Below, piece by piece: positions 2,678 to 64,000 of a stretch of DNA of 64,000 nucleotides; positions within the stretch are counted from its first letter, which is position 1, and each line of letters opens with the position of its first letter. The notes beneath the pieces are model-generated. The model was not told the DNA's origin, did no database searches, and worked only from the letters and a program-made list of their open reading frames with translations. Position numbers and translations under genes: made by a program. Source of the DNA: a virus; IMG/VR virus record IMGVR_UViG_3300032294_001887, positions 10,768 through 74,767 of that record; one strand, 5' to 3'.

Positions 2678-2732
2678 TGTTTAAATAAAAGTTTGTATTA
2701 AATATAAGTGAAAATAAAGTATTTATCAATAT

Positions 2733-3050: not shown

Positions 3051-3055
3051 TTAAT

Positions 3056-3568: not shown

Positions 3569-3571
3569 GAT

Positions 3572-3943: not shown

Positions 3944-3947
3944 AATT

Positions 3948-4991
3948 ATGCCATTACCAAAAAATATAGTTAAACCAACCTTACCACTAGTTCCTCGAAA
4001 AGAGTTATCGGCTCGTAGACAAGAACTATTGCAATATATCAACGAAGATGGAACTTATTTACCCAAATCGGTATTGCATGCGGATTTAGATAGAGGTATG
4101 TTGGACTTCGTTAAAAATGAATTGAAGGTCGTTACCGCAGGAGAAATAGTTCCAATGGTTGATATTATTATTACCACTCAAAATTGGTCTCAATATGTCG
4201 AAACTTATAAATTCATAGACTTAGATTATAACCCAGACCCACCATATATTACAGTCGTTAGAAGTCCTGAAGTTAAATATGGTTCAAACCCATCACTTCA
4301 ATATACAATTCCAAATAGAAAACAATTTTATTACGCATCTGTTCCAACTTGGAATGGTAATGAACAAGGTATGGATATCTATACAATACCACAACCTGTC
4401 CCTGTCGATATCAAATATAATGTTAAAATCGTTTGTAATAGAATGAGGGAATTGAATCAATTAAATAAAATTGTAATGCAAACATTTGCGTCACGACAAG
4501 CATACACCTTTATTAAGGGTCAATATGTTCCAATTATTTTAGATAATGTTTCTGACGAATCTCAAATGACCATAGACGCAAGAAAATATTATGTTCAGAA
4601 TTATGATTTCACAATGTTAGGATATCTGATTGATGAGGAAGAATTTGAGGTAAAACCGGCAATCCAAAGAGTTACCCAACTTATTGAAATGGATACCACA
4701 ACAAGAAAACAAAAAAGAAATCAATTCCCAAAAAATCCGGACGAATTTAAATTAGATTTCTTATTTGTGACAGGTAATACAACATTGGTAGATATAATTG
4801 ATTTTAGAGCCAACATGAGTGTTGCAAATTCAGATAATGTTGACACATTCGATGTTTATATAAATAACAACTATTATGGTAGTAATGTTGGAGTGATTCA
4901 AATTACCACGAATGACATTTTAAGGATTGAAATTACTAAAATAGATAATAATAACGAGGCGTTAATTGTCTTCGATAACAAGTTAGTTTAA
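3948..4991 (+). CDS. tail terminator / sheath stabiliser (T4 gp15-like)
   Basis: PQPVPVDIKYNVKIVCNRMRELNQL motif; immediately upstream of sheath gene. Confidence 0.6.
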   Translation: MPLPKNIVKPTLPLVPRKELSARRQELLQYINEDGTYLPKSVLHADLDRGMLDFVKNELKVVTAGEIVPMVDIIITTQNWSQYVETYKFIDLDYNPDPPYITVVRSPEVKYGSNPSLQYTIPNRKQFYYASVPTWNGNEQGMDIYTIPQPVPVDIKYNVKIVCNRMRELNQLNKIVMQTFASRQAYTFIKGQYVPIILDNVSDESQMTIDARKYYVQNYDFTMLGYLIDEEEFEVKPAIQRVTQLIEMDTTTRKQKRNQFPKNPDEFKLDFLFVTGNTTLVDIIDFRANMSVANSDNVDTFDVYINNNYYGSNVGVIQITTNDILRIEITKIDNNNEALIVFDNKLV

Positions 4992-35939: not shown

Positions 35940-36410
35940 ATGGCTAATGGTGTTACATATGGTATTAATTTTCCGTTTAGAGATTCTCTAAGAGGAGACT
36001 ACTTACAATTAACAGAATTACAATCAGAAGAAATTAAAGCTGATTTAATTCATCTATTGTTAACTAGAAAGGGTTCGAGATATTTTCTACCTGAATTTGG
36101 AACAAGATTATATGAATTTCTTTTTGAACCATTTGATGGATTAACATTTAATGCTATTGAATCTGATATAAGAGATGCGATTGAAAACTTTATGCCAAAT
36201 TTATTGGTTAATAGTTTAAGTATAACACCGGCCGACCCACAAGAAGAAGTTGATATTGCAACAGGTCAAAATTTTGTGGGAACAAGTGAATCGTCAGTAT
36301 ATCGATTTCCGGGAAAAGGAACTTCAGAATATACTGCAAAAATAAGGATAGATTACTCAACCAATGGTTCTACTTTTGGTCAAAGTGATTTTGTGATTAT
36401 TAATATTTAA
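35940..36410 (+). CDS. baseplate wedge / sheath initiator (T4 gp25-like)
   Basis: GINFPF..IKADLIHLLLTRKGSRYFLPEFGTRLYEFLFEP. Confidence 0.88.
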   Translation: MANGVTYGINFPFRDSLRGDYLQLTELQSEEIKADLIHLLLTRKGSRYFLPEFGTRLYEFLFEPFDGLTFNAIESDIRDAIENFMPNLLVNSLSITPADPQEEVDIATGQNFVGTSESSVYRFPGKGTSEYTAKIRIDYSTNGSTFGQSDFVIINI

Positions 36411-36415
36411 ATAAG

Positions 36416-38254
36416 ATGGCAAACAACAGAATATCATACGCTAGTAGAGATTATCAGTCGATTAGAACTGAACTTTTAAATTATACTAGAACATATTACC
36501 CTGAATTAATCCAAGACTTTAACGACGCTTCGGTATTTTCGGTATTTCTTGATTTAAATGCTGCGGTTGCAGATAATTTACATTATAATATTGACCGAAG
36601 TATTCAAGAAACGGTTCTACAATATGCTCAACAAAGGTCGTCAATTTATAACATAGCAAGAACCTACGGGTTAAAATTACCGGGACAAAGACCGTCTGTT
36701 TCATTGGTAGACTTCTCAATCACAGTCCCTGCTTTTGGGGATAAAGAGGATGAGAGATATCTTGGAACATTGGCTCGAGGGTCTCAAGTTGTTGGTGCGG
36801 GTGTTGTATTTGAGAATGTTTACGATATTGATTTTGCGTCACCATATAATGCTCAAGGATTCCCAAATCGTTTAAAGATTCCAAACTTCAATGCTAATAA
36901 TATTTTAATAAATTACACAATAACAAAGAGAGAAATTGTTGTGAATGGTATTACTAAAGTTTTCAAGAAGGTTATTGGTGCGAATGATGTTAAACCTTTC
37001 TTTGAATTATTTTTACCTGAAAAAAATGTTTTAGGAATTACAAGTGTATTATTGAAGAATGGAACGAACTATACCAATACTCCTACAGTCGCAGAATTTT
37101 TAGGTTTGGATAATAGATGGTATGAGGTTGACGCATTGGCTGAAGATAGGGTATTTGTTGAAGACCCGACAAAAGTATCTGACCAACCGGGTATTAAAGT
37201 TGGTAGATATATTCAAACCCAAAATAGATTTATTACTGAATATACACCAGAAGGATTTAAAAAAATGACATTTGGAGGAGGAACCAATACTGCTCAAGAC
37301 CAATTGAATCAATTTACAACTTTAGGTACTACATTAGAATTACAAAAATATTCAAATAACTTTTCATTGGGGTCAACTTTAACTCCAAATTCGACATTAT
37401 TTATTCAGTATAGAGTTGGAGGAGGATTGGCAACTAACTTGGGAACAAATGTTATCAATCAAATTGGAACCGTATCGTTTTTTGTTAATGGTCCGTCAGA
37501 AACAACTAATTCATCTGTTGTTAACTCATTGAGATGTGTCAATGTAACCGCAGCGGTTGGAGGGGCAGGTATTCCATCATTGGAAGAAATTAGAAATTAT
37601 GTTTCATTTAACTTCTCAGCACAAAAAAGAGCGGTAACCGTTCAAGATTATGAATCATTAATTCGAAATATGCCGGCTCAATTCGGAGCGCCAGCTAAAG
37701 TATCAATTACAGAAAATGATAATAAAATTTTAATTCAAATATTATCATATGACACTTCAGGTAAGTTAACAAACATTGTTTCAAATACTTTGAGACAAAA
37801 TATTGCAAATTATTTATCAAACTATAGAATGATGAATGATTATATTTCAATCTTTAGTGCTGAAGTTATTGATTTAAGTTTGGATGTCTCAATAGTGTTA
37901 GATTCGGCTCAAAATTCAGGACAAGTAATTTCAAGTGTTGTTGATAAAATATCTGCATATTTTAATGCACAAACAAGACAATTAGGACAGAATGTTTATT
38001 TATCTGAACTTAGAAGTTTAGTTCAAAATACTAATGGGGTATTAACGGTTGCAAGTATGGATGTATTTAATGAGGTTGGAGGACAATACTCGTCAGCAGA
38101 AACTTCAATGACTTATAGGGACGAAGCGACAAGATTAATTGAACCTGTTGATGATACAATTTTTGCGCAACCTTCACAAGTTTATCAAGTTAGATATCCG
38201 AATAAGGATATTAGAGTTTCAGTTAAAAATTTCCAATCAGTTACTTTTTCATAA
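36416..38254 (+). CDS. baseplate wedge protein (T4 gp6 / P2 gpJ-like)
   Basis: YASRDYQSIRTEL, AQQRSSIYNIARTYG, YRVGGG, AAVGGAG..SLEEIR, QKRAVTVQDYE. Confidence 0.88.
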   Translation: MANNRISYASRDYQSIRTELLNYTRTYYPELIQDFNDASVFSVFLDLNAAVADNLHYNIDRSIQETVLQYAQQRSSIYNIARTYGLKLPGQRPSVSLVDFSITVPAFGDKEDERYLGTLARGSQVVGAGVVFENVYDIDFASPYNAQGFPNRLKIPNFNANNILINYTITKREIVVNGITKVFKKVIGANDVKPFFELFLPEKNVLGITSVLLKNGTNYTNTPTVAEFLGLDNRWYEVDALAEDRVFVEDPTKVSDQPGIKVGRYIQTQNRFITEYTPEGFKKMTFGGGTNTAQDQLNQFTTLGTTLELQKYSNNFSLGSTLTPNSTLFIQYRVGGGLATNLGTNVINQIGTVSFFVNGPSETTNSSVVNSLRCVNVTAAVGGAGIPSLEEIRNYVSFNFSAQKRAVTVQDYESLIRNMPAQFGAPAKVSITENDNKILIQILSYDTSGKLTNIVSNTLRQNIANYLSNYRMMNDYISIFSAEVIDLSLDVSIVLDSAQNSGQVISSVVDKISAYFNAQTRQLGQNVYLSELRSLVQNTNGVLTVASMDVFNEVGGQYSSAETSMTYRDEATRLIEPVDDTIFAQPSQVYQVRYPNKDIRVSVKNFQSVTFS

Positions 38255-51300: not shown

Positions 51301-51383
51301 ATTTAAATTGTTTGAATAATACAACAATTAGTTCAGTTTCACTCTATGTAGGAATAAACATTAATATTAATTGTGCTCGATAA
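48381..51383 (+). CDS. baseplate wedge protein (T4 gp7 / P2 gpI-like)
   Basis: IPSELLVNLSRTLGW..LILNASYLFKSKGTRRSIEFLLRLIG. Confidence 0.7.
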   Translation: MAVEIKNTKYFYPPRPGNGAGTFSDNIVGLQTVEGGGLTQGNFEFTTGVTEKVNRTFNVGAFSEPISLDMLGVDSLEQSRLILATQFRVYPNYDISQVLNFSMYGSLSKRFSVSITKIINYFPASLDVMFTNDDYVTGNTAYDIVYDREADETYFKVNVDRISNPFDIDYSINATTNLNIREISVSPYRNLYNTYLDYCVSINDNIFNILAFVPSETLSLGYIQLYASGAPFGTTATTINDEFQVRPNDYIVDKTFQESFDEVEKFLVNRLVRPEYTAVFQVPQQNEYGQTYTEYKQVTWPKKGPWNLDISSFLFDNYLEEIQAIAINLDSFKTNLISRFLVTDSLKEFDTLGQKVEKIFQIYGRSFDQVKQFIDGLAYMNSVNYNPSNDIPSELLVNLSRTLGWSSNFSPITNEDFLSSVFGNTSTPTYPGYARALTPTELNYAYYRNLILNASYLFKSKGTRRSIEFLLRLIGAPDSLIEYNEHIYLADQKINLEQFDTQWAAISGGTYVNNVPSYLPNDTYKIQGNLYTAFTSSAIYQDVNVNLTDYPIDTEGYPKAPQNTETFFFQIGAGWYEVTPQHRSPDAVQITGNVYTGQNFNVQTQLTPFTYGQTYLNRYRNFPYMSEGFKLQKVVDNNKSWLSSDDKIRISTQGDYNAYYFVDNEKLVLNVKNVDIFLNPAQGLVYDVWDQSRQYDYPIPESGLTVGYPVPGGVDWTYINPEPKKKTFFEFSQTFWENMINTRNRQYISDGKTGGYPTLQSIFWKYIESEQTVGLPNNQYTYQKLIDYVNGIGPYWTKLVEQMVPATTIWNGGVRLENSIFHKQKLAYRRQRGCEFILVPVNPCYINSGIFDYTCNSEEATFNIYPWFNQDIKVSNFSSILGYTLNNMLSQQGLTLNDCNQNSVLTEWYVDLVIDGQQIIKELFYTGYGILDVPTPNQWRFALLNYLPQLINYGYSYSFNSDNLVSGNILTITNLNCLNNTTISSVSLYVGINININCAR

Positions 51384-54300
51384 TGAATTATAATCTATTA
51401 ATAACTGGAGATTGTCAAAGTAACGGTTCAGGCGCAATATCTCTTTCAATTAATGGTGGTAATGAACCATATATTGTCCAATGGACATTACTTACTACTC
51501 CTCCAACAAGTTTGGGGACAGATACAATAACATCTCTGTATCCATCAATAAGAACTTCATTAAGTTCCGGTAATTACCTAGCCACCGTTAGTGATAGTAC
51601 TGCACCTGTTCAACAAACTTTAAATATTAGTATACCTGTATCATCAGGAGTATGTGCTAGTATTCTTGGAGTCCAAGGGACAACCTGTTCTTTAGATAAT
51701 GGTTCGGTTACAGGAACCTCATCCTCAAATTTTTCAACTACACAATTTTATTTATATGATTCTAATGATAACGAAATCACGAATCAAAGTACTAATATAA
51801 ATGTCAATGATGTTATTTTTGGTACTTTAAGCGCCGGAACGTATTATATGAAAGTGGTTGATATTGGAGGTTGTACAGGATATAGTCAAAATTTCATTAT
51901 TGAAGACTCAACTCCTTTAGATTTTGGAATATATAATGTGCCAAATTCTTCTTGTGGAGGAACACCTATAGGTAAACTTTTTGTTACAGGAGTCACTGGG
52001 TCTCCCCCGTATAGTTATATTTGGTCTAATGGAGCGACAGGGTCTACGATAACTGGTCTAACTTCGGGAGCCTATTCGGTAACTGTTACGGATTCTTTAG
52101 GGTGTTCACAAACTAAAGGGGTAAATGTGGTTAATGTACCTCAAGTGGGTTTAGGTGCATTTACTGCAGTACCGCCAAGTTGTTTTGCCGCGGATGGGTC
52201 ATTGACCATTCAAATTACAGGAGGTACTGCACCATTCTACTATTCTGCGTCCACAGGAGAAGTATCAATTCAATATGGGACATCTTGGACTTTAAATGGA
52301 TTATCACCCGGGTTTTATTCTATCCAAGTTACAGATGCGGCACTGTGTTCATTTGTAGCAGGTACCACATTAATATCTCCTCAAGGAATGGTCTCCGTCA
52401 CTATTGATACGAGTGGGTCAACTTGTTCAAGTTCTGACGGGTCAATAAAAGTATCTGTGGTTGGAGGTGTTACACCATACACATATACTTTAATTTATCC
52501 TAATGGTAATACAAAAAACATTGGCGGAAATAATACGGTTCAAATATTCCCAAATTTAACGTCAGGGACTTATTCAGTCGCGGTTCAAGATTCTTCGTCT
52601 TGTTATTACATGGAAGAGGTTACTTTATTTGCAACAGATACTTACACAATCTCAACAAATACGACTGGAACAACTTGTAATTTAAACAATGGAATTGTCT
52701 CGGTAACAAGAACTAATGGTGGAGTATCACCATATAATTACTCTTTGGATGGAATTCAGAATGTTCCAAATACCGCGTTATCTGCGGTTACATTTTCAAA
52801 TGTTAGTTCAGGACAACATACCGTAACCGTTACGGATGCCGCGGGTTGTGTTCAAACCACTCAAGTTTATGTTAATCCAAGTAGTTCTTTAGATTTTAGT
52901 TTGTATAGTACATCTTGCGGAAATGGTTCTAATGGGATGATTAATGCTTTAATATCTTCAGGAACACCACCATTTACGTTTTATTGGTCAAATAATGTTA
53001 TTGGCAATCCTCAAGAAATTCAAGTTGAAGGATTAAGTGCCGGTACATATACTCTAAGAATAGTTGATGATATAGGATGTTCTTTAGAAAGGTCAACAAC
53101 TATAAATTGTGATAAACTCTATGTTTCCTACCAGAGATATCTTATGGGTGGGGAAAACTTTACAATAAATAGTCAAACCAAGTTTGGGTTAGTTCAAATG
53201 TTAAATGAAGGGTTTAAAGATTTGACAGTAGGACAAACCGGTTGCAATTTATTACAAAGTGTTTTTGATATAAAAATTTCAGTTAATCCATCAGGTTATA
53301 GTGTAAATGAAAGTTTCTTTACCGGTTATACATTAAACTCTGTACCTAGTGATAATTTATATATTAATACTCTTAGAGAAATGTTGTTAAATATTCCTGG
53401 AGTTGGAGGGGTAATTGTTAATGGAGATACTAACCAATTAACAATTAATACCATACCCGGAGATAATACATTAGTTGGTCAACAAATAATAGTTGAATTG
53501 GTTATAAATTATGATATTTTATGTAATTGTTCGCCACCTATTAATTTTGATATTACCGCTAATTGGAGTTTAGTTGGTGTGACAAATCAAGCAACATTCG
53601 TTGCATGGTTAACCTCCTTGGGGGCTACTTCTGTTAACGTTACCGCATTTGATTTAAATGGAGGTAAATTACAGGCAACTATTTCAGTTAATGGGATTAC
53701 AACATTAAATTTAAATAATTTAGGCGTAACTTTGGTTAACAAAGTAGGGGGATTAACAGGTTTAAATACTTTGGATTTATCAGACAATAATATCGTAACA
53801 TTTAATCCATCAATTGCGTTACCAACGACTTTACAAACTTTAGGTTTAAATGGTAATCAAATTGTAACATTTAATCCATCAATTGCGTTACCAACGACTT
53901 TACAAACTTTAGGTTTAAATGGTAATCAAATTGTAACATTTAATCCATCAATTGCGTTACCAACGACTTTACAAATTTTAGGTTTAAATGGTAATCAAAT
54001 TGTAACATTTAATCCATCAATTGCGTTACCAACGACTTTACAAATTTTAGGTTTAAATAGTAATCAAATTGTAACATTTAATCCATCAATTGCGTTACCA
54101 ACGAGCTTAGAGACATTAGATTTAGGGACCAACCAAATTGTGACATTTAATCCATCAATTGCATTACCAACGAGCTTACTACAATTATATTTAAATGATA
54201 ATCAAATTGTAACATTTAATCCATCAATTACGTTACCAACGAGCTTGCAACAATTATATTTAAATGGTAATCAAATTGTAACATTTAATCCATCAATTGC

Positions 54301-54778
54301 GTTACCAACGAACCTGCTAGAATTATTATTGTATAATAACCAAATTGTAACATTTAATCCATCAATTGCATTACCAACGAGCTTGCTAGCATTATATTTA
54401 AGTAATAACCAAATTGTAACATTTAATCCATCAATTGCATTACCAACGAACTTACTAGCATTATATATAGATAATAATCAAATTGTAACATTTAATCCAT
54501 CAATTGCATTACCAATAACCTTCAACTTATTAAGTTTACGAGGCAATCAAATTGTGGCATTTAATCCAACAATTCCGTTACCCAATAGTTTAGAGATTTT
54601 GGACTTAACAGGTAATCTCATGACAACCGCTGGTTATACTATTAGTGAAACATGGGCAAATGCTCAAACACCATTTACATCCGTTTGTGCTATTAGTTTT
54701 ACGGGGAATGTTAACTCTATAACCGGTACTAATTTAGAGTCTATTTTGATATCTAAAAATTGTTCAATTATCCCATAG
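51383..54778 (+). CDS. SprB-repeat fibre/adhesin with C-terminal leucine-rich-repeat domain
   Basis: about 7 units of C..GSI.V..GG..PY.Y.W..L.AG.Y.V.V.D..GC; then 12 full 23-aa LRRs LxxLxLxxNQIVTFNPSIALPTx; probable start ATG 51383. Confidence 0.82.
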   Translation: MNYNLLITGDCQSNGSGAISLSINGGNEPYIVQWTLLTTPPTSLGTDTITSLYPSIRTSLSSGNYLATVSDSTAPVQQTLNISIPVSSGVCASILGVQGTTCSLDNGSVTGTSSSNFSTTQFYLYDSNDNEITNQSTNINVNDVIFGTLSAGTYYMKVVDIGGCTGYSQNFIIEDSTPLDFGIYNVPNSSCGGTPIGKLFVTGVTGSPPYSYIWSNGATGSTITGLTSGAYSVTVTDSLGCSQTKGVNVVNVPQVGLGAFTAVPPSCFAADGSLTIQITGGTAPFYYSASTGEVSIQYGTSWTLNGLSPGFYSIQVTDAALCSFVAGTTLISPQGMVSVTIDTSGSTCSSSDGSIKVSVVGGVTPYTYTLIYPNGNTKNIGGNNTVQIFPNLTSGTYSVAVQDSSSCYYMEEVTLFATDTYTISTNTTGTTCNLNNGIVSVTRTNGGVSPYNYSLDGIQNVPNTALSAVTFSNVSSGQHTVTVTDAAGCVQTTQVYVNPSSSLDFSLYSTSCGNGSNGMINALISSGTPPFTFYWSNNVIGNPQEIQVEGLSAGTYTLRIVDDIGCSLERSTTINCDKLYVSYQRYLMGGENFTINSQTKFGLVQMLNEGFKDLTVGQTGCNLLQSVFDIKISVNPSGYSVNESFFTGYTLNSVPSDNLYINTLREMLLNIPGVGGVIVNGDTNQLTINTIPGDNTLVGQQIIVELVINYDILCNCSPPINFDITANWSLVGVTNQATFVAWLTSLGATSVNVTAFDLNGGKLQATISVNGITTLNLNNLGVTLVNKVGGLTGLNTLDLSDNNIVTFNPSIALPTTLQTLGLNGNQIVTFNPSIALPTTLQTLGLNGNQIVTFNPSIALPTTLQILGLNGNQIVTFNPSIALPTTLQILGLNSNQIVTFNPSIALPTSLETLDLGTNQIVTFNPSIALPTSLLQLYLNDNQIVTFNPSITLPTSLQQLYLNGNQIVTFNPSIALPTNLLELLLYNNQIVTFNPSIALPTSLLALYLSNNQIVTFNPSIALPTNLLALYIDNNQIVTFNPSIALPITFNLLSLRGNQIVAFNPTIPLPNSLEILDLTGNLMTTAGYTISETWANAQTPFTSVCAISFTGNVNSITGTNLESILISKNCSIIP
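53762..54589 (+). repeat. 69-bp tandem repeat x12 encoding LRRs
   Basis: constant core AATCAAATTGTAACATTTAATCCATCAATTGCRTTACCAACGA recurring every 69 nt with a 26-nt variable part. Confidence 0.95.
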
Positions 54779-56068: not shown

Positions 56069-59000
56069 ATGTCATTTCCATATAAAAATCCGATATCCGC
56101 AAGCCAAATTTCTGGAACGGAAAGTGCTTCAAGAACATCAACATTTGGTACTAACTTCTCAGTTCTCCAAACAGGGGGGTATATGGAAGTTTATGGTTTA
56201 TCTGATTTGAATTGGTCAACTTATGGGGCAACAGGTTCAATCCAAAATTCTGGTAATACAATACCAATTCAATTTACAGTTGCAGGTTCTTTTAGTGCGT
56301 TAACCCTTAACTCAGACAACATATCTTCAGGTAGACGAAGATTAGGTATGCAGGTTCATGTACAAGAAACTGATACGGTATACCAATATACTATACCAAA
56401 CTACAATACGTTATTTGCTGCACTAACAGGTTTAACTGGGTTATCCGCAATATCAGTTAGTGATTATTCAACAATCGTAAATACTCGTTCACAGGCTGGT
56501 AGAAATTTCATCAACGCTTGGACAGGTTCAACAATTGAAGGTGTTGGTGGTGTTAGTCGTAATGATGCAAGATGGAGAATAGTTTATGGAAGCGATGTTC
56601 AAATAACAGGAGGAACTTATTTTTCCGCAATTACAACTTTAGATTTATATAATAGTACGGGAGGGACAATCTCAATATCAGGATTTAATGGAACAGTTAC
56701 TGGTGGGACATATAATAGCGGGACATCAACAATAACTTTAAATAATAGTGATGGTAGTTTTGTTAATATAACAGGTATCACATCAAACGCCGGTACTCTT
56801 ACTGTTTATGATGCAACCTCAGGGGTGACGGTAACAAATGTCACAGGTATGACATTTTCAGGGGCTTCTGTAATTAATAACGGAGGTGGGAATGTCTTAA
56901 TTAATATTACCGGTGGAACAAGTGGTAGTTCGGGTTCTTCAGGAACAAGTGGTAGTAGTGGAACCTCAGGTATAAATGGTTCAAGTGGAACTTCAGGAAC
57001 AAGTGGTAGTAGTGGGACATCGGGTTCAAGTGGAACTAGTGGTTCTTCAGGAACTAGTGGTAGTAGTGGGACTTCGGGTTTAAGCGGAGCTTCAGGCACA
57101 AGTGGAACTTCAGGTAGTAGCGGTACGGGAGGTAGTTCAGGTTCAAGTGGTTCGTCAGGAACATCAGGCTCAAGTGGAACTAGTGGTAGTTCAGGAACAT
57201 CAGGTTCGTCAGGGACATCAGGAAGTTCAGGGAGTAGTGGAACCTCAGGTTCAAGCGGAACTAGTGGTTCTTCAGGGACTTCGGGTTCAAGTGGGACTAG
57301 CGGAACAGATGGTAGTTCAGGTACAAGCGGTAGTAGTGGTACATCAGGTTCTTCAGGAACATCGGGTAGTAGTGGTACCTCAGGTTCTTCAGGGACTAGT
57401 GGATTAACAGGAGCGTCAGGTACTAGCGGAACTTCAGGTTCTTCAGGAACTAGTGGTAGTAGTGGAATAAGTGGTTCTTCAGGAACTTCAGGTTCAAGTG
57501 GAACGAGCGGTTCAAGCGGAACAAGTGGTAGTAGTGGAACAGATGGTTCTTCAGGAACATCGGGTAGTAGTGGGACAAGTGGTTCTTCAGGTTCAAGTGG
57601 AACTAGCGGAACATCGGGTAGTAGTGGAACAAGTGGAACAGATGGTAGTAGTGGTACGAGTGGTAGTTCAGGCTCAAGTGGTACAAGTGGCTCGTCAGGG
57701 TCTTCAGGAACATCCGGCTCATCAGGAACTTCAGGTTCTAGCGGTAGTTCAGGTTCATCAGGGACTAGCGGTTCAAGCGGTTCATCAGGAAGTTCAGGAA
57801 CATCCGGTTCAAGTGGGTCTTCAGGGACAAGTGGATTAACAGGAGCGTCAGGTACTAGCGGAACATCAGGTTCAAGTGGAACAAGTGGTTCTTCAGGGAC
57901 TGGTGGAAGTAGTGGAACAAGTGGTTCATCGGGAACAAGCGGTAGTAGTGGTACATCAGGTTCTTCAGGAAGTAGTGGAACCTCAGGTTCGAGCGGTACG
58001 AGTGGCTCTTCAGGTAGTTCAGGTTCGAGCGGTACGAGTGGCTCTTCAGGTAGTTCAGGGACAAGCGGTAGTAGTGGTACATCAGGTTCAAGTGGAACAA
58101 GTGGTTCGTCAGGAACTAGCGGAACAGATGGTAGTTCAGGAACTAGTGGTAGTAGCGGAACTTCAGGTTCTTCAGGGACTAGTGGTAGTTCAGGTTCAAG
58201 TGGTACTAGCGGTTCATCAGGAACTTCAGGTTCAAGTGGGTCTTCAGGGTCTTCAGGAACCTCCGGCTCATCAGGAACTTCAGGGTCTTCGGGTACATCA
58301 GGAAGTAGTGGAAGTTCAGGAACATCCGGTTCTTCAGGTTCATCAGGAAGTTCGGGAACCAGTGGTAGTTCAGGTTCGTCAGGAACATCAGGTTCAAGCG
58401 GGTCTTCAGGAACTAGTGGATTAACAGGAGCGTCAGGAACTAGCGGAACTTCAGGTTCTTCAGGAACCAGTGGTAGTAGTGGTATAAGTGGTTCGTCAGG
58501 AACATCGGGCTCAAGTGGGACTAGCGGTTCATCAGGGAGTAGCGGTACGAGCGGTTCATCAGGAAGTAGTGGAAGTTCAGGAACAAGTGGAACTAGTGGT
58601 TCATCGGGAACAAGCGGTAGTTCAGGCTCAAGTGGTACTAGTGGTTCATCAGGTTCAAGTGGTTCGTCAGGAACTAGTGGTAGTTCAGGCTCAAGTGGAA
58701 CAAGTGGCAGTTCAGGTTCAAGTGGTTCGTCAGGAAGTTCAGGAACAAGCGGAAGTAGTGGAACTTCAGGAACCTCAGGTTCAAGCGGAACATCAGGTTC
58801 ATCAGGAAGTAGTGGGACATCAGGCTCAAGTGGAAGTAGTGGTTCAAGTGGAACTAGCGGTTCATCAGGAAGTAGTGGGACATCAGGCTCAAGTGGTTCA
58901 TCCGGGACATCAGGAACTAGTGGAAGTAGTGGTTCATCCGGAACATCAGGGACAAGTGGGTCGTCGGGAACATCAGGTTCTTCAGGAACTAGCGGTTCAT

Positions 59001-62000
59001 CAGGAAGTAGTGGGACAAGCGGTAGTTCAGGTTCATCAGGAACAAGTGGGTCGTCAGGAACATCAGGCTCTTCAGGTAGTTCAGGGTCTTCAGGGACTAG
59101 TGGTAGTTCAGGTTCGTCAGGAACATCAGGTAGTTCAGGTTCGTCAGGAACATCAGGTTCTTCAGGAAGTTCGGGAACTAGTGGTAGTTCAGGTTCTTCA
59201 GGAACATCAGGAACAAGTGGGTCGTCAGGAACCAGTGGATTAACAGGAGCGTCAGGCACTAGCGGAACTTCAGGTTCTTCAGGAACCAGTGGTAGTAGTG
59301 GTATAAGTGGTTCGTCAGGAACATCGGGCTCAAGTGGAACTAGCGGAACAGGATTTTCTGCGGTAACAAATCCTGCACTAACTAGAGTATTAACATCAGA
59401 CGGAACACCTAATGGTGCAATTGCCCAATCAGGATTAACTTACAATGGAACACAATTAACTGTTAGTGGTATAACATATACTAAAGGAATTACATCAGTT
59501 AGTGGAATAATATTTCCTCAACTTACAATCAATAGTACCTATGTTGTAACGGACGATGACTACATGGTTGATGTTACAGGTGGCACTTTCAATGTTCAAC
59601 TTCAAACTGCTGTTGGTAGAAAAGGTAGATTGATTGTAATTAAAAATAATGGTGGTGGTGCGGTAACCGTATTACCGTATTCAGGTGAAAATATTGACGA
59701 TAAAGCATTTGTTATATTAGGTGAAACGAATTCAATTCAATTAGCGAGTAATGGTTCAAACTGGGTTGCAATTTCTTATAATATTTCAACGGTTAACTCA
59801 TCAACAGGGGTGTTTGAGTTTTCGGGATTAAGTATCGCTTCTCCCACATCGTTCACTGTTGCACCGGTTAAAGGTTGGATTGTTGATGATAACACAAATC
59901 CTTTATCTCCGCAACTTTATTATCTTTCATATACAGGTGGGACATATAGTGCGACTTATGTTACGGCTACTACTGAAACTTGGATTTATATAACGAGTGG
60001 TGGAACAATTACACAATTGAACATTCCTCCAACGGAAACACAAAGAAGACAAAACATCTTCTTGGGTAAGTTGGGACATGCGAATAAAACAAGTATTATT
60101 AATGCGTTCAGTCAACCCGATTTTGTTCAATCACCATTGGCACAACTTCGTGATATGTTCACTCCAATTAACTTAATAAACGGAGGTATAAGTGCTTCAC
60201 CAAATGGTGCTAATTTAAGTTTCAATACAAGTGCAGAATATTTGTATGGATTAGGTATTAATTTTGCCGTTAACCCATTACAACCAGATGCATTATATGT
60301 TTCAGGTACCGCTCCGTGTACTTTCCAATATAGAACACAAACAGGTGGAACCGCAACAAACACAACAACAATTAACCCAACGGTTTATGATGTTAACGGT
60401 GTCGTTACGCCACTTTCAGGTACCAAAGCAACTAACCAAAGAATTTATTTGGTTCAAAATGGTGTGTTTAGAGTTCAATACGGACAAACCGAATATTCAA
60501 CATTGGCTCAAGCGGTTGCGGGTATTGCGACGGAACCATTTGTCGAATTTTCCAATTTCTCAACCAATGGTATTTTAATTGGTATTTTATCCGTAACAAG
60601 TAATGCTACTAATTTATCGGATACATCAAGAGCGTTATTTTTCAATGTGTCAAAATTTGGTGAAGGTGCAGGTGCTGCGGGTGGTACACCAACAACAAAT
60701 TTACAACAAGCATATAATAACTCCGTTCAACCTGAAATTATAACAAATTCAACATTAGGTCCATTATCACTTCAAGATGGTACAAATAATCTAAATAGTG
60801 GTGTTATTGAAGGTAGGAATTTTACTGGTGGTACTACTTTTAGTGTAAATGCTTCAGGTAGAACAACAACAACCTCATTATCAATAACAGGTATTACAAG
60901 TGGAACTAGCTTAACACGATTTGTTGTTGTTGATAATAGTGGAAATACTTTTTATCAAACAGCTGGTGCTAGTGGTTCGTCAGGTACTAGTGGAACTTCA
61001 GGTTCTTCAGGAACATCCGGCTCATCAGGAAGTAGTGGGACATCAGGCTCAAGTGGTTCGTCAGGAACTTCAGGTTCAAGTGGAACTAGCGGTTCATCAG
61101 GAAGTAGTGGAAGTAGCGGTTCATCAGGAAGTAGTGGAAGTTCAGGAACAAGTGGAACTAGTGGTTCATCGGGAACAAGCGGTAGTTCAGGAACTAGTGG
61201 TTCATCGGGTTCATCCGGAACTAGTGGCAGTTCAGGCTCAAGTGGAACAAGTGGTAGTTCAGGTTCAAGTGGTTCGTCAGGAAGTAGTGGGACATCAGGC
61301 TCAAGTGGTTCTTCAGGTTCATCAGGAACTAGTGGAAGTAGTGGTTCATCCGGAACATCAGGTTCATCCGGAACATCAGGTTCTTCGGGTACATCAGGAA
61401 GTAGTGGAAGTTCAGGAACATCAGGTTCAAGCGGAACAAGTGGTTCTTCAGGAAGTTCGGGGACTAGTGGTAGTTCAGGCTCTTCAGGAACAAGTGGCTC
61501 ATCGGGAACTAGTGGTAGTTCAGGTTCATCAGGAACAGCAGGAACAAGTGGTTCATCAGGAACATCGGGAACAAACGGAAGTAGTGGTTCATCAGGAACA
61601 TCAGGTTCTTCGGGCTCATCCGGAACAAGCGGAAGTAGTGGAAGTTCAGGTTCTTCGGGCTCATCCGGAACAAGCGGAAGTAGTGGAACTTCAGGAACAT
61701 CAGGTTCAAGTGGGACAAGCGGTTCATCAGGAACATCAGGTTCTTCAGGTTCTTCAGGTTCAAGTGGGACAAGCGGAACATCTCCTACAGGTTTAGTTGC
61801 GTCTAACTATGTTGCAAAAGGAGTCAAAGGAGGTTCTTCTCAAACTATAACAAATGGGTCTGACCAAGTCGTAACATTTGTTGATGAGTTTGACCCAAAT
61901 AATTGGATAACTTCAAATAAATTTCAACCAACAATAGCAGGTTATTATGACATTCAAGTCGCGGTATGGTGGGATGCTGGCTCAGTCACTAATAATCAAT

Positions 62001-64000
62001 GTAACATTCAGATTAGGAAAAATGGTACTACGCAAGTTGCCATTCAGCAAACTCAAATTTTAACAGGTTCTGGATATGGTATGGAAATTGATATTATTGT
62101 GTATTTTAATGGTACAACAGATTATATTGAAGTAACCGCATTTACTGGTAATCCAACATCTCAAAATATAAATGGGTCGAGTTCGGGTACTTGGATTACC
62201 GCAGCATTAATTGTTGGAGGAGGAACCTCAGGAACGAGTGGTTCTTCAGGAACAAGCGGTAGTTCAGGTTCATCAGGAACCTCCGGCTCTTCAGGTTCAA
62301 GTGGAACTAGTGGTTCTTCAGGTTCATCAGGAACCTCCGGTTCTTCGGGAAGTTCAGGAACTAGTGGTTCATCAGGAAGTTCAGGAACAAGTGGTTCATC
62401 AGGTAGTTCAGGGACATCAGGTTCATCTGGAACCTCAGGTTCTTCGGGAACTAGTGGGATAAATGGTTCTTCGGGAACTAGTGGTTCTTCAGGTTCATCA
62501 GGAAGTTCAGGAACAAGTGGTTCTTCGGGTTCAAGTGGAACAAGTGGTAGTTCAGGTTCTTCGGGTTCTTCAGGAACATCAGGAACAAGCGGTAGTAGTG
62601 GGACATCAGGAAGTTCAGGAACAAGTGGTTCTTCGGGTTCATCCGGGACTAGCGGAAGTAGTGGGTCATCAGGAACATCAGGTTCTTCGGGAACTAGTGG
62701 CACTTCAGGAAGTTCAGGTTCAAGTGGAACGAGTGGAAGTAGTGGCTCATCAGGAACATCAGGGTCTTCGGGCACTTCAGGTTCAAGCGGAACAAGTGGC
62801 TCATCGGGTACTAGCGGTTCTTCAGGTTCAAGTGGTAGTAGTGGGACTTCAGGTTCTTCGGGAAGTTCAGGAACTAGTGGTTCATCAGGTTCTTCAGGAA
62901 CATCCGGTTCTTCGGGTTCAAGTGGAACGAGCGGTAGTTCGGGTTCTTCAGGAACTAGTGGAAGTAGTGGTTCATCTGGGACATCAGGAACTAGTGGAAG
63001 TAGCGGTTCATCAGGAACTAGCGGCTCTTCAGGAAGTTCAGGAACATCTGGTTCAAGTGGCTCATCTGGAACAAGTGGTAGTTCAGGTTCATCAGGAAGT
63101 TCAGGAACATCAGGTTCAAGTGGTAGTAGTGGAACAAGCGGTAGTTCAGGCTCTTCGGGAACATCAGGTTCTTCAGGTACTAGCGGAACAAGCGGTTCAT
63201 CCGGAACATCGGGTTCTTCGGGTTCAAGTGGAACGAGCGGTAGTTCGGGTTCTTCAGGAACTTCAGGTTCGAGCGGAACAAGTGGTAGTAGTGGAACATC
63301 AGGTTCAAGTGGTTCTTCGGGAACTTCAGGTTCAAGTGGTACGAGCGGTTCATCAGGAAGTTCGGGAACTAGTGGAAGTAGCGGCTCATCAGGAACATCA
63401 GGTTCAAGTGGAAGTAGTGGTTCATCAGGTAGTTCAGGGACAAGTGGTTCTTCGGGTTCAAGCGGAAGTAGCGGAACATCAGGAAGTTCGGGTACAAGTG
63501 GAATAAGTGGTTCATCAGGAACAAGCGGAAGTAGTGGTAGTAGTGGAACTAGTGGCTCTTCAGGAAGTAGTGGGACATCAGGTTCTTCGGGTTCATCCGG
63601 GACTAGCGGAAGTAGTGGAACAAGTGGTTCTTCAGGTTCATCAGGAAGTTCAGGAACTAGTGGTAGTTCAGGTTCTTCAGGAACAAGCGGGTCATCAGGA
63701 ACATCAGGCTCTTCAGGTTCATCCGGTTCTTCGGGTTCAAGTGGTAGTAGCGGAATATCCGGTTCTTCAGGAACTTCAGGTTCAAGTGGGACCAGCGGTT
63801 CTTCAGGAACTAGTGGATTAACAGGAGCGTCAGGTACTAGCGGAACATCAGGAAGTTCGGGTACAAGTGGAATAAGTGGCTCATCGGGAACTAGTGGTAG
63901 TTCAGGTTCATCAGGAACATCAGGTTCAAGTGGTTCGTCAGGAAGTTCAGGGACAAGCGGTTCATCGGGAACTAGTGGAAGTAGTGGTTCATCAGGAACA
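56069..64000 (+). CDS. giant Gly-X-Ser collagen-like fibre protein (>2640 aa, runs off window end)
   Basis: Not in ORF track; ATG 56069 MSFPYKNPISASQ..; frame read through without a stop in the globular parts and held in 9-nt register across the repeats; three G-(S/T)-S tracts separated by globular domains. Confidence 0.9.
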   Translation, partial: MSFPYKNPISASQISGTESASRTSTFGTNFSVLQTGGYMEVYGLSDLNWSTYGATGSIQNSGNTIPIQFTVAGSFSALTLNSDNISSGRRRLGMQVHVQETDTVYQYTIPNYNTLFAALTGLTGLSAISVSDYSTIVNTRSQAGRNFINAWTGSTIEGVGGVSRNDARWRIVYGSDVQITGGTYFSAITTLDLYNSTGGTISISGFNGTVTGGTYNSGTSTITLNNSDGSFVNITGITSNAGTLTVYDATSGVTVTNVTGMTFSGASVINNGGGNVLINITGGTSGSSGSSGTSGSSGTSGINGSSGTSGTSGSSGTSGSSGTSGSSGTSGSSGTSGLSGASGTSGTSGSSGTGGSSGSSGSSGTSGSSGTSGSSGTSGSSGTSGSSGSSGTSGSSGTSGSSGTSGSSGTSGTDGSSGTSGSSGTSGSSGTSGSSGTSGSSGTSGLTGASGTSGTSGSSGTSGSSGISGSSGTSGSSGTSGSSGTSGSSGTDGSSGTSGSSGTSGSSGSSGTSGTSGSSGTSGTDGSSGTSGSSGSSGTSGSSGSSGTSGSSGTSGSSGSSGSSGTSGSSGSSGSSGTSGSSGSSGTSGLTGASGTSGTSGSSGTSGSSGTGGSSGTSGSSGTSGSSGTSGSSGSSGTSGSSGTSGSSGSSGSSGTSGSSGSSGTSGSSGTSGSSGTSGSSGTSGTDGSSGTSGSSGTSGSSGTSGSSGSSGTSGSSGTSGSSGSSGSSGTSGSSGTSGSSGTSGSSGSSGTSGSSGSSGSSGTSGSSGSSGTSGSSGSSGTSGLTGASGTSGTSGSSGTSGSSGISGSSGTSGSSGTSGSSGSSGTSGSSGSSGSSGTSGTSGSSGTSGSSGSSGTSGSSGSSGSSGTSGSSGSSGTSGSSGSSGSSGSSGTSGSSGTSGTSGSSGTSGSSGSSGTSGSSGSSGSSGTSGSSGSSGTSGSSGSSGTSGTSGSSGSSGTSGTSGSSGTSGSSGTSGSSGSSGTSGSSGSSGTSGSSGTSGSSGSSGSSGTSGSSGSSGTSGSSGSSGTSGSSGSSGTSGSSGSSGTSGTSGSSGTSGLTGASGTSGTSGSSGTSGSSGISGSSGTSGSSGTSGTGFSAVTNPALTRVLTSDGTPNGAIAQSGLTYNGTQLTVSGITYTKGITSVSGIIFPQLTINSTYVVTDDDYMVDVTGGTFNVQLQTAVGRKGRLIVIKNNGGGAVTVLPYSGENIDDKAFVILGETNSIQLASNGSNWVAISYNISTVNSSTGVFEFSGLSIASPTSFTVAPVKGWIVDDNTNPLSPQLYYLSYTGGTYSATYVTATTETWIYITSGGTITQLNIPPTETQRRQNIFLGKLGHANKTSIINAFSQPDFVQSPLAQLRDMFTPINLINGGISASPNGANLSFNTSAEYLYGLGINFAVNPLQPDALYVSGTAPCTFQYRTQTGGTATNTTTINPTVYDVNGVVTPLSGTKATNQRIYLVQNGVFRVQYGQTEYSTLAQAVAGIATEPFVEFSNFSTNGILIGILSVTSNATNLSDTSRALFFNVSKFGEGAGAAGGTPTTNLQQAYNNSVQPEIITNSTLGPLSLQDGTNNLNSGVIEGRNFTGGTTFSVNASGRTTTTSLSITGITSGTSLTRFVVVDNSGNTFYQTAGASGSSGTSGTSGSSGTSGSSGSSGTSGSSGSSGTSGSSGTSGSSGSSGSSGSSGSSGSSGTSGTSGSSGTSGSSGTSGSSGSSGTSGSSGSSGTSGSSGSSGSSGSSGTSGSSGSSGSSGTSGSSGSSGTSGSSGTSGSSGTSGSSGSSGTSGSSGTSGSSGSSGTSGSSGSSGTSGSSGTSGSSGSSGTAGTSGSSGTSGTNGSSGSSGTSGSSGSSGTSGSSGSSGSSGSSGTSGSSGTSGTSGSSGTSGSSGTSGSSGSSGSSGTSGTSPTGLVASNYVAKGVKGGSSQTITNGSDQVVTFVDEFDPNNWITSNKFQPTIAGYYDIQVAVWWDAGSVTNNQCNIQIRKNGTTQVAIQQTQILTGSGYGMEIDIIVYFNGTTDYIEVTAFTGNPTSQNINGSSSGTWITAALIVGGGTSGTSGSSGTSGSSGSSGTSGSSGSSGTSGSSGSSGTSGSSGSSGTSGSSGSSGTSGSSGSSGTSGSSGTSGSSGTSGINGSSGTSGSSGSSGSSGTSGSSGSSGTSGSSGSSGSSGTSGTSGSSGTSGSSGTSGSSGSSGTSGSSGSSGTSGSSGTSGTSGSSGSSGTSGSSGSSGTSGSSGTSGSSGTSGSSGTSGSSGSSGSSGTSGSSGSSGTSGSSGSSGTSGSSGSSGTSGSSGSSGTSGSSGSSGTSGTSGSSGSSGTSGSSGSSGTSGSSGSSGTSGSSGSSGSSGTSGSSGSSGTSGSSGSSGTSGSSGTSGTSGSSGTSGSSGSSGTSGSSGSSGTSGSSGTSGSSGTSGSSGSSGTSGSSGTSGSSGSSGTSGSSGSSGTSGSSGSSGSSGSSGTSGSSGSSGSSGTSGSSGTSGISGSSGTSGSSGSSGTSGSSGSSGTSGSSGSSGTSGSSGTSGSSGSSGSSGTSGSSGSSGTSGSSGTSGSSGSSGSSGSSGSSGISGSSGTSGSSGTSGSSGTSGLTGASGTSGTSGSSGTSGISGSSGTSGSSGSSGTSGSSGSSGSSGTSGSSGTSGSSGSSGT
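56915..59344 (+). repeat. Gly-X-Y tract 1 (270 triplets, mostly GSS/GTS)
   Basis: Gly codon every 9 nt; 2430 nt = 270 x 9. Confidence 0.93.
60965..61783 (+). repeat. Gly-X-Y tract 2 (91 triplets)
   Basis: 819 nt = 91 x 9, GSS/GTS. Confidence 0.93.
61784..62221 (+). other. C1q/TNF-like globular domain within giant fibre
   Basis: SQTITNGSDQVVTF..FQPTIAGYYDIQVAV..IQIRKNG..IVYFNGTTDYIEV..TWITAALI. Confidence 0.72.
62222..64000 (+). repeat. Gly-X-Y tract 3 (at least 197 triplets, truncated by window)
   Basis: Gly codon every 9 nt from 62222 to 63995. Confidence 0.93.

What the first reader, a model, noticed from the sequence alone, without database searches (positions are those of the whole stretch)
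56069..64000. Giant proline-free Gly-(Ser/Thr)-Ser collagen-like protein invisible to the ORF track
Seen: one frame from 56069 past the window end with in-register Gly-X-Y tracts of 270, 91 and at least 197 triplets. Y is almost always Ser, X is Ser or Thr, and there is no Pro and almost no charge. Established: prokaryotic collagens normally rely on Pro and charged pairs or on Thr in Y (BclA); glycosylated Thr can stabilise triple helices; Gly-X-X repeats can alternatively form polyglycine-II bundles (snow-flea antifreeze protein). Inference: at about 0.29 nm per residue a triple helix would total at least 480 nm, longer than vertebrate type I collagen, and would probably need O-glycosylation. 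Alternatives are a PGII bundle with a regular hydroxyl face (ice or mineral binding) or a flexible tether.
Basis: partly seen in the sequence, partly recalled or inferred. Interest (0 to 1): 0.85.

Follow-up and report, generated by a model that had tools for sequence, protein, structure and literature searches.

The report
Giant proline-free collagen-like phage tail fibre
An uncultured large T4-like phage, probably infecting Bacteroidota, encodes a tail-fibre protein of more than 2,644 residues whose shaft is 560 glycine-serine/threonine-serine collagen-type triplets with no proline, a collagen chemistry that appears untested experimentally but is common in metagenomic phages.

Summary
One frame is open from 56069 to the window end, which is also the contig end. 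It holds in-register Gly-X-Y tracts of 271, 91 and at least 198 triplets. X is Ser or Thr, Y is 97% Ser, and the tracts contain no proline and only four charged residues (Asp).

It is a real gene. Codon usage matches the genome, synonymous sites are scrambled, and all 560 glycines are kept.

It is the distal gene of a T4-like baseplate and tail module in a phage contig that is about 25% complete. The middle domain matches phage tail-fibre families. The 146-residue domain between tracts folds confidently as a C1q/TNF jelly roll (Z 15-17.5).

The N-terminal domain defines a family of at least 191 viral contigs. Sixty-eight of the 80 loci fetched carry the same proline-free tract at residue about 288, with up to 760 triplets in complete genes. 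Fifty-seven contigs break inside the tract.

In relatives, protein-glycosylating enzymes (TibC-type, GT60) lie directly beside the fibre gene. This contig carries a GT60 cluster, but the region beyond the fibre gene is missing.

Best reading: a trimeric fibre at least 0.5 µm long with collagen-type shafts, possibly O-glycosylated. The triple helix itself is untested.

The scan has found this kind before, in at least 117 other genomes.

The parts
35940..38254 (+). Baseplate wedge genes: gp25-like (35940-36410) and gp6-like (36416-38254), opening the tail and baseplate module that ends with the fibre gene
   Evidence: PHROG baseplate wedge families phrog_261 at 2.9e-19 and phrog_219 at 2.2e-23. 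The gene order matches Flavobacterium phage immuto, where tail fibre and tailspike genes follow 10-15 kb downstream.
56069..56914 (+). N-terminal domain (aa 1-282), the conserved family-defining part and probably the virion (baseplate) attachment domain
   Evidence: 191 relatives in IMG/VR at 55-84% identity. The start MSFPYKNP is near-invariant, which fixes the start codon. There is no Pfam or PHROG match. The AF2 monomer model is poor, pLDDT 56.8.
56915..59353 (+). Collagen-register tract 1: 271 uninterrupted Gly-(Ser/Thr)-Ser triplets with five copies of a GL(T/S)GASGTSGTSGSSG landmark (a sixth copy lies in tract 3)
   Evidence: Pfam PF01391 for the whole protein at 5.9e-218.
59354..60964 (+). 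Mosaic 537-aa globular middle region. Residues 1-46 resemble the start of the C-terminal domain of relatives' fibre gene 1. Residues 44-138 resemble the N-terminal domain of relatives' adjacent fibre gene 2. Residues about 150-435 are a tail-fibre/tailspike module.
   Evidence: BLASTP at 70% identity to the C-terminal domains of the first fibre gene in L057 and L040, and at 44% identity to residues 14-108 of the second fibre gene in L057. PHROG tail fiber phrog_16641 at 6.6e-22 and phrog_5668 at 9.7e-17. tblastn to tail fibre or tailspike genes of Stenotrophomonas, Streptomyces and Flavobacterium phages.
60965..61783 (+). Collagen-register tract 2: 91 triplets
61784..62221 (+). 146-aa C1q/TNF-like jelly-roll knob between tracts 2 and 3
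   Evidence: AF2 pLDDT 93.2. Foldseek gives phage phi812 central spike knob at 5e-8 and C1QL3 at TM 0.74/0.83. VIA Z is 17.5 for phi812, 16.2 for Caprin-2 and C1QL2 C1q, and 15 for BclA. There are 3,450 representative clusters with E<=1e-3. No Pfam C1q sequence match.
62222..64000 (+). Collagen-register tract 3: at least 198 triplets, cut by the contig end
51371..54778 (+). Neighbouring 1135-aa protein with SprB repeats and leucine-rich repeats, probably another receptor-binding or fibre component. It is a hint to a Bacteroidota host.
   Evidence: Pfam SprB at 4.7e-20 and LRR_8 at 1.1e-16.

Best explanation
The ORF encodes the long tail fibre of an uncultured T4-like jumbo phage of roughly 300 kb, probably infecting Bacteroidota. 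Three chains are anchored to the baseplate by the conserved N-terminal domain. They run in parallel through three shaft segments made of proline-free Gly-(Ser/Thr)-Ser triplets, which most likely form a collagen-type triple helix. Trimeric globular modules keep the segments in register: a tail-fibre/tailspike-like module and a C1q/TNF-like knob. These modules probably also bind host surface structures. The visible part would span about 0.5 µm and would act as a long-reach capture line. The Ser/Thr hydroxyls are probably O-glycosylated by phage enzymes, which would stiffen or stabilise the shaft. Shown: the gene is real, the tracts and their conservation, the tail-module context, tail-fibre homology, the C1q/TNF fold, and glycosyltransferase genes beside orthologues. 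Inferred: the triple helix, the trimeric state, glycosylation in this phage, the length and the capture role.
For: The gene is real and under selection. It lies at the end of a T4-like baseplate module, with the same layout as Flavobacterium phage immuto. The middle domain hits PHROG tail-fibre families and annotated tail fibre or tailspike genes. The N-terminal domain is conserved while the distal parts vary. 68 of 80 relatives start a Pro-free G-(T/S)-(S/D) tract at aa about 288. Across 70 distinct relatives, 11,347 triplets contain only 4 Pro and 4 Lys/Arg. Relatives end in C1q (Pfam 4.2e-7) or Peptidase_S74 chaperone domains, which are typical of trimeric fibres. The internal knob has a C1q/TNF fold with Z 15-17.5, and the solved structures it matches belong to families known to be trimeric (established knowledge). 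The same knob family is attached to ordinary proline-containing collagen tracts (10-19% Pro) in many other proteins, so the Pro-free tract occupies the structural place of a conventional collagen tract. A phage tail-fibre collagen domain has been shown experimentally to form a trimeric triple helix: EPclA, Tm 42 C (PMC3368898). For glycosylation, fused GT4 + TibC-type genes lie convergent directly after the fibre stop in L026 and L055, and a TibC-type pair lies about 8 kb beyond the stop in the 295-kb relative G001. GT60 is the next gene after the fibre in L087. A GT60 + DUF3431 + HtrL cluster lies at bases 384-4573 of this contig, upstream of the window. The complete 309-kb relative whose fibre lacks the tract has neither collagen tracts nor TibC.
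Against: From my recollection of Persikov-type host-guest data, Ser in Y and Ser or Thr in X are poor triple-helix formers, and the tracts lack the known stabilisers Pro/Hyp, charge pairs and Thr in Y. Gly/Ser-rich sequence is also the classic composition of flexible linkers. No TibC-type gene lies on the 74.8 kb available. GT60 is also present in the relative without collagen tracts, so it is a clade feature, not tract-specific. Two relatives with shorter tracts (L047, L087) have no TibC on 63-110-kb contigs. A head or neck location is not excluded. Tract lengths rest on one short-read assembly that broke in tract 3.
Confidence: 0.6

Rival explanations
1. The protein is a virion fibre, but the Gly-Ser/Thr-Ser tracts are not triple-helical. 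They are flexible, disordered or mucin-like (glycan-stiffened) tethers, and the three chains are joined only at the globular knobs.
For: The composition resembles that of engineered flexible linkers. No Pro, charge pairs or Thr in Y are present.
Against: A disordered linker needs no register. Here Gly is kept at every third residue in 560 of 560 triplets, and across 11,347 triplets in relatives, despite saturated synonymous divergence. No indel breaks the frame of three in tracts of up to 569 triplets. The homologous knob is joined to ordinary Pro-containing collagen tracts elsewhere.
Confidence: 0.25
2. The tracts form polyglycine-II bundles or another glycine-based fold with a hydroxyl face, as in snow-flea antifreeze protein, serving ice or mineral binding.
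For: The only support is the Gly-every-third periodicity and the hydroxyl-rich composition.
Against: Known PGII bundles, as I recall them, consist of short helices joined by turns. Here 271 triplets run without any break or turn motif. Trimeric knobs at the tract ends imply three parallel chains. The gene belongs to a tail module.
Confidence: 0.04
3. The giant frame is an assembly artefact, either a chimera or a mis-sized repeat, or it is not one gene.
For: The contig ends inside tract 3. 57 of 80 related contigs also end inside the tract. An 80-nt exact repeat exists in tract 1. The middle region joins modules that in relatives belong to two adjacent genes.
Against: The junction of the two modules lies in unique, non-repetitive sequence. 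The tracts are only 58% identical to one another at the DNA level. Complete relatives from independent metagenomes have 1,656-2,796-aa genes of the same design. An independent relative (P0005) repeats the order middle-domain end, tract, knob, tract.
Confidence: 0.05
4. It is a head, neck or whisker fibre (a decoration) rather than a baseplate tail fibre.
For: In T4 the whisker gene wac follows the baseplate genes (established knowledge). The N-terminal domain has no recognised baseplate-binding family.
Against: PHROG and tblastn matches are to tail fibre and tailspike proteins. Relatives carry C1q or Peptidase_S74 ends typical of receptor-binding fibres. Tail fibre genes occupy the syntenic position in phage immuto.
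Confidence: 0.1

Closest known systems
Collagen-like prophage tail-fibre proteins EPclA/EPclB of E. coli O157:H7 (Ghosh et al. 2012, PMC3368898); 'Bacteriophage collagen' (Smith et al. 1998, cited in PMC1079782)
   Same: A phage fibre with an N-terminal attachment domain, a Gly-X-Y shaft and trimerising globular domains. EPclA was shown to be a trimer with a true triple helix, Tm 42 C, unglycosylated.
   Different: EPclA is a 47-kDa chain with one short collagen domain of conventional composition. Here there are at least 1,680 tract residues in three segments, no proline, almost no charge, Ser in Y, different terminal domains (no PfN/PfC) and no experimental data.
Gly-X-Y tail-fibre candidates of T4-like cyanophages (P-SSM2 orf28; Sullivan et al. 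2005, PMC1079782)
   Same: T4-like phages of aquatic bacteria. About half of that ORF is Gly-X-Y, with X and Y often Pro, Ser or Thr, and it was interpreted as a tail fibre.
   Different: Those tracts include proline and are much shorter. No homology of the non-collagen domains was shown here.
BclA of Bacillus anthracis exosporium (PDB 1WCK, 2Z5W, 3TYJ)
   Same: A collagen-like stalk with a C1q/TNF-fold trimeric knob; the knob model matches BclA at Z about 15. The BclA stalk is glycosylated (PMC8968730).
   Different: The BclA repeat is mostly Gly-Pro-Thr (my recollection), so Pro is in X and Thr in Y, and its knob is C-terminal. Here X is Ser or Thr, Y is Ser, and the knob is internal between two tracts. 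Sequence identity is only about 16%.
TibC-TibA and Aah-AIDA-I autotransporter heptosyltransferase systems (NCBIfam TIGR04414)
   Same: Relatives of this fibre gene are flanked by TIGR04414-type enzymes scoring 203-280 bits, above the cut-off.
   Different: The known substrates are beta-helical autotransporters, not Gly-X-Y tracts. In relatives the enzyme is fused to a GT4 domain. No such gene is visible on this contig fragment.
Complement C1q, C1q-like and TNF-family globular domains
   Same: A collagen tract with a jelly-roll head. The fold matches at Z 15-17 with rmsd about 2 A over about 125 residues.
   Different: There is no sequence-level match to Pfam C1q (profile comparison not significant). 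The domain is internal, phage-encoded and part of a 3,450-cluster family of mostly fragmentary metagenomic proteins, many with Gly-X-Y tracts.

Membership tests
Collagen-like proteins (Pfam PF01391, triple-helix repeat) | Uninterrupted Gly-X-Y periodicity over long stretches | tested here: met
   271, 91 and at least 198 triplets with Gly in 560 of 560 first positions. PF01391 at 5.9e-218, although a periodic low-complexity sequence inflates this score.
Collagen-like proteins (Pfam PF01391, triple-helix repeat) | Known stabilising composition: Pro/Hyp, charged pairs, or Thr in Y | tested here: not met
   The tracts hold 0 Pro, 4 Asp and no Lys/Arg, and Y is 97% Ser. Bacterial collagens are reported with 19-31% Pro in X and 32-48% Thr in Y (PMC8968730).
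Collagen-like proteins (Pfam PF01391, triple-helix repeat) | An adjacent trimerisation domain that nucleates and registers the helix | tested here: met
   A C1q/TNF-fold knob lies between tracts 2 and 3. Relatives end in C1q or Peptidase_S74 domains. The trimeric state itself was not tested.
Collagen-like proteins (Pfam PF01391, triple-helix repeat) | Actual triple-helical conformation (CD maximum near 220-225 nm, cooperative melt, protease resistance) | not testable with these tools
   This needs recombinant protein.
Phage tail fibre / receptor-binding protein | Gene located in the tail or baseplate module | tested here: met
   gp25-like and gp6-like genes lie at 35940-38254, and all genes run on the same strand down to the fibre. 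The syntenic position holds tail fibre and tailspike genes in phage immuto.
Phage tail fibre / receptor-binding protein | Sequence homology to annotated tail-fibre families | tested here: met
   phrog_16641 at 6.6e-22 and phrog_5668 at 9.7e-17. tblastn to tail fibre or tailspike genes at 1e-26 to 7e-24.
Phage tail fibre / receptor-binding protein | Conserved N-terminal anchor with variable, modular distal parts | tested here: met
   The N-terminal domain is 55-86% identical in 80 loci, while tract length and distal domains vary or are absent.
Phage tail fibre / receptor-binding protein | Presence in the virion, on the baseplate | not testable with these tools
   The phage is uncultured, and there are no proteomic or imaging data.
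C1q domain (Pfam PF00386) / TNF superfamily, for aa 1906-2051 | Ten-stranded jelly-roll fold of C1q/TNF heads | tested here: met
   pLDDT 93.2. C1QL3 at TM 0.74/0.83. Z 16.2 for C1QL2 and Caprin-2 C1q and 17.1 for EDA-A1.
C1q domain (Pfam PF00386) / TNF superfamily, for aa 1906-2051 | Match to the Pfam C1q sequence profile | tested here: not met
   No C1q hit at E<=1. None among 31 family members. The profile comparison with a relative's Pfam-positive C1q domain gave a probability of 1.8%.
Substrates of TibC/Aah-type O-heptosyltransferases (TIGR04414) | A cognate transferase gene in the same genome, near the substrate gene | tested here: inconclusive
   None lies on the 74.8-kb fragment, and the region downstream of the fibre is missing. 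It is present next to orthologous fibre genes in L026 and L055 and about 8 kb away in G001.
Polyglycine-II bundle proteins (snow-flea antifreeze type) | Short Gly-X-X helices connected by turns into an antiparallel bundle | tested here: not met
   No breaks or turn motifs occur in 271 consecutive triplets.

The most novel reading that the evidence does not exclude
These tracts form a genuine collagen-type triple helix that uses neither imino acids, nor charge pairs, nor Thr in Y. It would be held together by dense O-glycosylation from phage-encoded TibC-type or GT60 enzymes, or by hydroxyl-water networks alone. That would be a third, undescribed route to collagen stability. It would let phages build protein threads of 0.5 to more than 0.65 µm, longer than vertebrate type I collagen, as long-range host-capture lines. 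Fusion here of two fibre genes that are separate in relatives would further imply that the relatives' fibres join end to end.
Probability: 0.35. Interest if true: 0.8.

Novelty: new variant of a known kind. Interest (0 to 1): 0.58.

Why it matters
Collagen stability rules were derived from animal and a few bacterial collagens: imino acids, charge pairs and glycosylated or free Thr in Y. This family keeps a strict collagen register over hundreds of triplets using only Gly, Ser and Thr, with Asp added in many relatives.

The family is abundant: 191 viral contigs share the N-terminal domain and 3,450 clusters share the knob domain. If helical, it would extend the known sequence space of the triple helix. 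It would also offer a very simple, hydroxyl-rich scaffold for biomaterials and a system for studying protein O-glycosylation by phages.

For phage ecology, it suggests half-micrometre capture fibres on jumbo phages of aquatic bacteria.

Practically, these genes break short-read assemblies: 57 of 80 related contigs end inside the tract. They are therefore systematically truncated and left as 'hypothetical protein' in databases.

Tried and rejected
- **N-terminal domain.** The AF2 model had pLDDT 56.8 and was unusable for fold search. Pfam and PHROG found nothing. The protein atlas gave only viral 'hypothetical' clusters.
- **Middle domain.** There is no PDB sequence match. The atlas gave only leads: a collagen-associated viral cluster and a weak T4_gp9_10_N share of 12%.
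- **PDB hit 8ZXL** ('spindlefibril/axialfibril'). The one paper I looked at that cites it is a collagen-assembly study; this is not a phage relative.
- **Sequence-level C1q membership.** Not shown.
- **GT60 as a tract-specific partner.** Rejected, because all five related genomes have it, including the one without collagen tracts.
- **'Moraphage' lineage paper** (PMC12619734). It describes large aquatic Bacteroidota phages with core glycosyltransferases but does not mention collagen. I did not test whether this phage belongs to that lineage.
- **Literature.** Searches for proline-free collagen triple helices found no study of Gly-Ser/Thr-Ser tracts.
- **Named relatives.** A homologue search of 5.8 billion proteins returned 41 giant relatives, none with a functional name (only 'hypothetical protein' or none).
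Full report
**Observation**

The frame starting at ATG 56069 is open for 2,644 codons to base 64000. The window is bases 10768-74767 of a 74,767-bp linear IMG/VR viral contig that CheckV rates about 25% complete. The ORF therefore runs off the contig, not just the window.

Gly occupies every third residue without exception in three tracts:
- aa 283-1095, 271 triplets
- aa 1633-1905, 91 triplets
- aa 2052-2644+, 198 triplets

X is Ser (317) or Thr (222). Y is Ser in 543 of 560 triplets. The tracts contain no proline, four Asp and no Lys/Arg.

**Is it a real gene?**

- Gly, Ser and Thr codon usage in the tracts matches that of the other large genes of the window.
- The DNA is not a clean tandem repeat. 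Tandem Repeats Finder sees only 60-90% matching units of many periods.
- In-register 120-nt pieces of tract 1 are on average 58% identical, and the longest exact self-repeat is 80 nt.
- Synonymous sites are thus near saturation, while the first two bases of all 560 Gly codons are unchanged. This is strong purifying selection on the register.
- The long ORFs in other frames and on the minus strand are mechanical consequences of the composition.
- The N-terminus MSFPYKNP is nearly invariant in 42 aligned relatives, which fixes the start codon.

**Genomic context**

The window is a T4-like phage. It encodes gp32-like SSB, a UvsX-like recombinase, endonuclease VII, a DnaB-like helicase and both RNR subunits. 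It also has gp25-like and gp6-like baseplate wedge proteins at 35940-38254.

All genes from there to the fibre lie on the plus strand. The gp6 homologue is closest to an uncultured 484-kb phage and to Flavobacterium phage immuto. In immuto, tail fibre and tailspike genes lie 10-15 kb downstream of the wedge genes.

The gene two upstream of the fibre carries SprB repeats and leucine-rich repeats. Together these features suggest a Bacteroidota host; this is an inference.

**The non-collagen parts**

*N-terminal domain (aa 1-282).* It has no Pfam or PHROG family. A monomer AF2 model was poor.

*Middle region (537 aa).*
- It matches PHROG tail-fibre families (6.6e-22 and 9.7e-17).
- By tblastn it matches annotated tail fibre or tailspike genes of Stenotrophomonas, Streptomyces and Flavobacterium phages.
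- It is a mosaic. Its first 46 residues are 70% identical to the beginning of the C-terminal domain that ends the fibre gene in relatives L057 and L040.
- Residues 44-138 are 44% identical to the N-terminal domain of the next, separate collagen-like fibre gene in L057.
- The junction lies in unique sequence. The window's ORF therefore looks like an in-frame fusion or module shuffle of two fibre genes that are adjacent in relatives.
- An independent metagenomic protein (P0005) repeats the order: end of middle domain, tract, knob, tract, C-terminal domain.

*The 146-aa domain between tracts 2 and 3.*
- It has 3,450 representative clusters of relatives.
- It folds with pLDDT 93.2.
- It matches the phi812 central-spike knob, C1q-like, Caprin-2 C1q, TNF-family and BclA heads, with Foldseek E 5e-8 to 1e-5 and VIA Z 15-17.5.
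- It does not match the Pfam C1q profile.
- As far as I know, the solved families it matches are all trimeric.

**The family**

A scan of IMG/VR with the N-terminal domain found 191 relatives, and 80 loci were fetched.

- 68 of the 80 start a tract at residue about 288.
- Over 70 distinct proteins, the 11,347 triplets have X = Thr 62% and Ser 29%, and Y = Ser 78% and Asp 16%. They contain only 4 Pro and 4 Lys/Arg.
- Complete genes reach 2,733 aa (705 triplets) and 2,796 aa (760 triplets, one tract of 569).
- Other members (556-815 aa) have no tract at all. The tract is therefore an optional spacer of variable length between a conserved anchor and variable distal domains.
- Distal domains include a shared C-terminal domain of about 150 aa, Pfam C1q, and the Peptidase_S74 intramolecular chaperone.
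- 57 of 80 contigs end inside the tract. In the 98%-complete 295-kb relative, the two contig ends are the two halves of the fibre gene.
- These genes systematically break short-read assemblies. That explains both the truncation here and the absence of annotation.
- 41 giant relatives found among 5.8 billion proteins carry no functional name, only 'hypothetical protein' or none.

**Triple helix or not?**

Arguments for a triple helix:
- The register is absolutely conserved despite saturated synonymous change.
- No out-of-phase indels occur over hundreds of triplets.
- Trimeric-fold knobs flank the tracts.
- The same knob family is joined to ordinary proline-containing collagen tracts (10-19% Pro) in many other proteins.
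- There is experimental precedent that a phage tail-fibre collagen domain forms a stable trimeric triple helix (EPclA, Tm 42 C; PMC3368898).

Arguments against:
- The composition lacks every known stabiliser. A review gives 19-31% Pro in X and 32-48% Thr in Y for bacterial collagens, and regards phage collagens as about 18 residues long (PMC8968730).
- As I recall from host-guest peptide work, Ser in Y is a weak helix former.
- Gly/Ser is the classic flexible-linker composition.

I could not test this computationally because the complex predictor was closed. I put the triple helix at about 0.6 and a non-helical tether at about 0.25. The polyglycine-II idea gets a few per cent, because there are no turns or breaks and the chains must run parallel between trimeric knobs.

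**Glycosylation**

Earlier notes of this scan pointed to TibC-type heptosyltransferases, and I tested that lead on this family.
- TIGR04414 scores above its cut-off in three relatives' records.
- In L026 and L055 the gene is a GT4 + GT9/TibC fusion lying convergent immediately after the fibre stop codon.
- In G001 a TibC-like pair lies about 8 kb beyond the fibre stop. Several neighbouring ORFs there looked like sugar-metabolism genes from their N-terminal motifs, but I did not test this.
- In L087 the gene right after the fibre is a GT60 polypeptide GlcNAc-transferase homologue.
- The 100%-complete relative whose fibre homologue lacks the tract has no collagen tract and no TibC.
- In other relatives the next genes are further collagen-like fibre genes and the contigs end. 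Two relatives with shorter tracts show no TibC on 63-110 kb.

On this contig no TibC is visible, but everything downstream of the fibre is missing. A GT60 (6e-67) + DUF3431 + HtrL_YibB cluster lies at contig bases 384-4573, upstream of the window. GT60 occurs in all five related genomes examined, including the tract-free one, so it is not tract-specific. Glycosylation of this fibre is therefore plausible at about 0.45 but unproven.

**Function**

The best reading is a trimeric long tail fibre. If helical, its visible shaft segments sum to about 480 nm (1,680 residues at about 0.29 nm), with globular binding modules spaced along it. This would be a long-reach capture device for a large phage in dilute water. 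The length, the capture role and the binding function of the knobs are all inferences.

**Novelty**

Collagen-like phage tail fibres are a known kind (Smith 1998; Sullivan 2005; Ghosh 2012). The strictly proline-free, almost uncharged Gly-Ser/Thr-Ser chemistry at this scale is a new variant. I found no published study of it.

This scan has already reported the same kind on other DNA: 141 notes in at least 117 genomes.

Specific to this locus:
- the near absence of Asp compared with the family average of 16% in Y
- the internal C1q/TNF knob, confirmed by fold
- the apparent fusion of two neighbouring fibre genes into one frame

Noticed in passing
window 51371-54778: A 1135-aa protein combines SprB repeats (4.7e-20), a BiPBP_C-like piece and leucine-rich repeats (LRR_8 at 1.1e-16). 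It sits between the baseplate genes and the fibre. It is probably another receptor-binding component and a hint to a Bacteroidota host.
   Followed up: partly
contig G000 bases 384-4573 (upstream of the window; locus L089): A cluster of GT60 polypeptide GlcNAc-transferase homologue (PF11397, 6e-67), DUF3431 and HtrL_YibB proteins. GT60 is conserved in all five related phage genomes examined.
   Followed up: partly
L026:18237-20858 (-) and L055:16295-18616 (-): Fused two-domain glycosyltransferases (GT4 Glycos_transf_1 + GT9/TibC-type, TIGR04414 at 203-280 bits) lie convergent directly after the stop of the orthologous fibre genes.
   Followed up: yes
L057:16248-18881, L040:19724-20854, L047:15425-20848: Relatives carry second and third collagen-like fibre genes directly downstream of the first. 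The N-terminal domain of the second gene is found fused inside the window's ORF. This raises the possibility that the separate fibres join end to end.
   Followed up: partly
G001 contig ends (L101, L102): A 295-kb, 98%-complete relative has the two halves of its fibre gene at opposite contig ends. The only assembly break of that genome therefore lies in the collagen tract. From their N-terminal motifs, several ORFs between the fibre stop and the TibC-like pair look like sugar-metabolism genes; I did not test this.
   Followed up: partly
window 56915-59353 and 63815-63886: A 24-residue landmark GL(T/S)GASGTSGTSGSSGT.G.SG recurs six times inside the tracts, at aa 337, 445, 589, 784, 1057 and 2583. 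Two copies are 99% identical at the DNA level over 90 nt (80 nt exactly). Its role (hinge, enzyme recognition site or recombination point) is unknown.
   Followed up: partly
relatives L009-L088, tract regions: Most relatives have Asp in about 16% of Y positions with virtually no Lys/Arg, giving strongly acidic shafts. The window's protein has almost none, 4 of 560.
   Followed up: no
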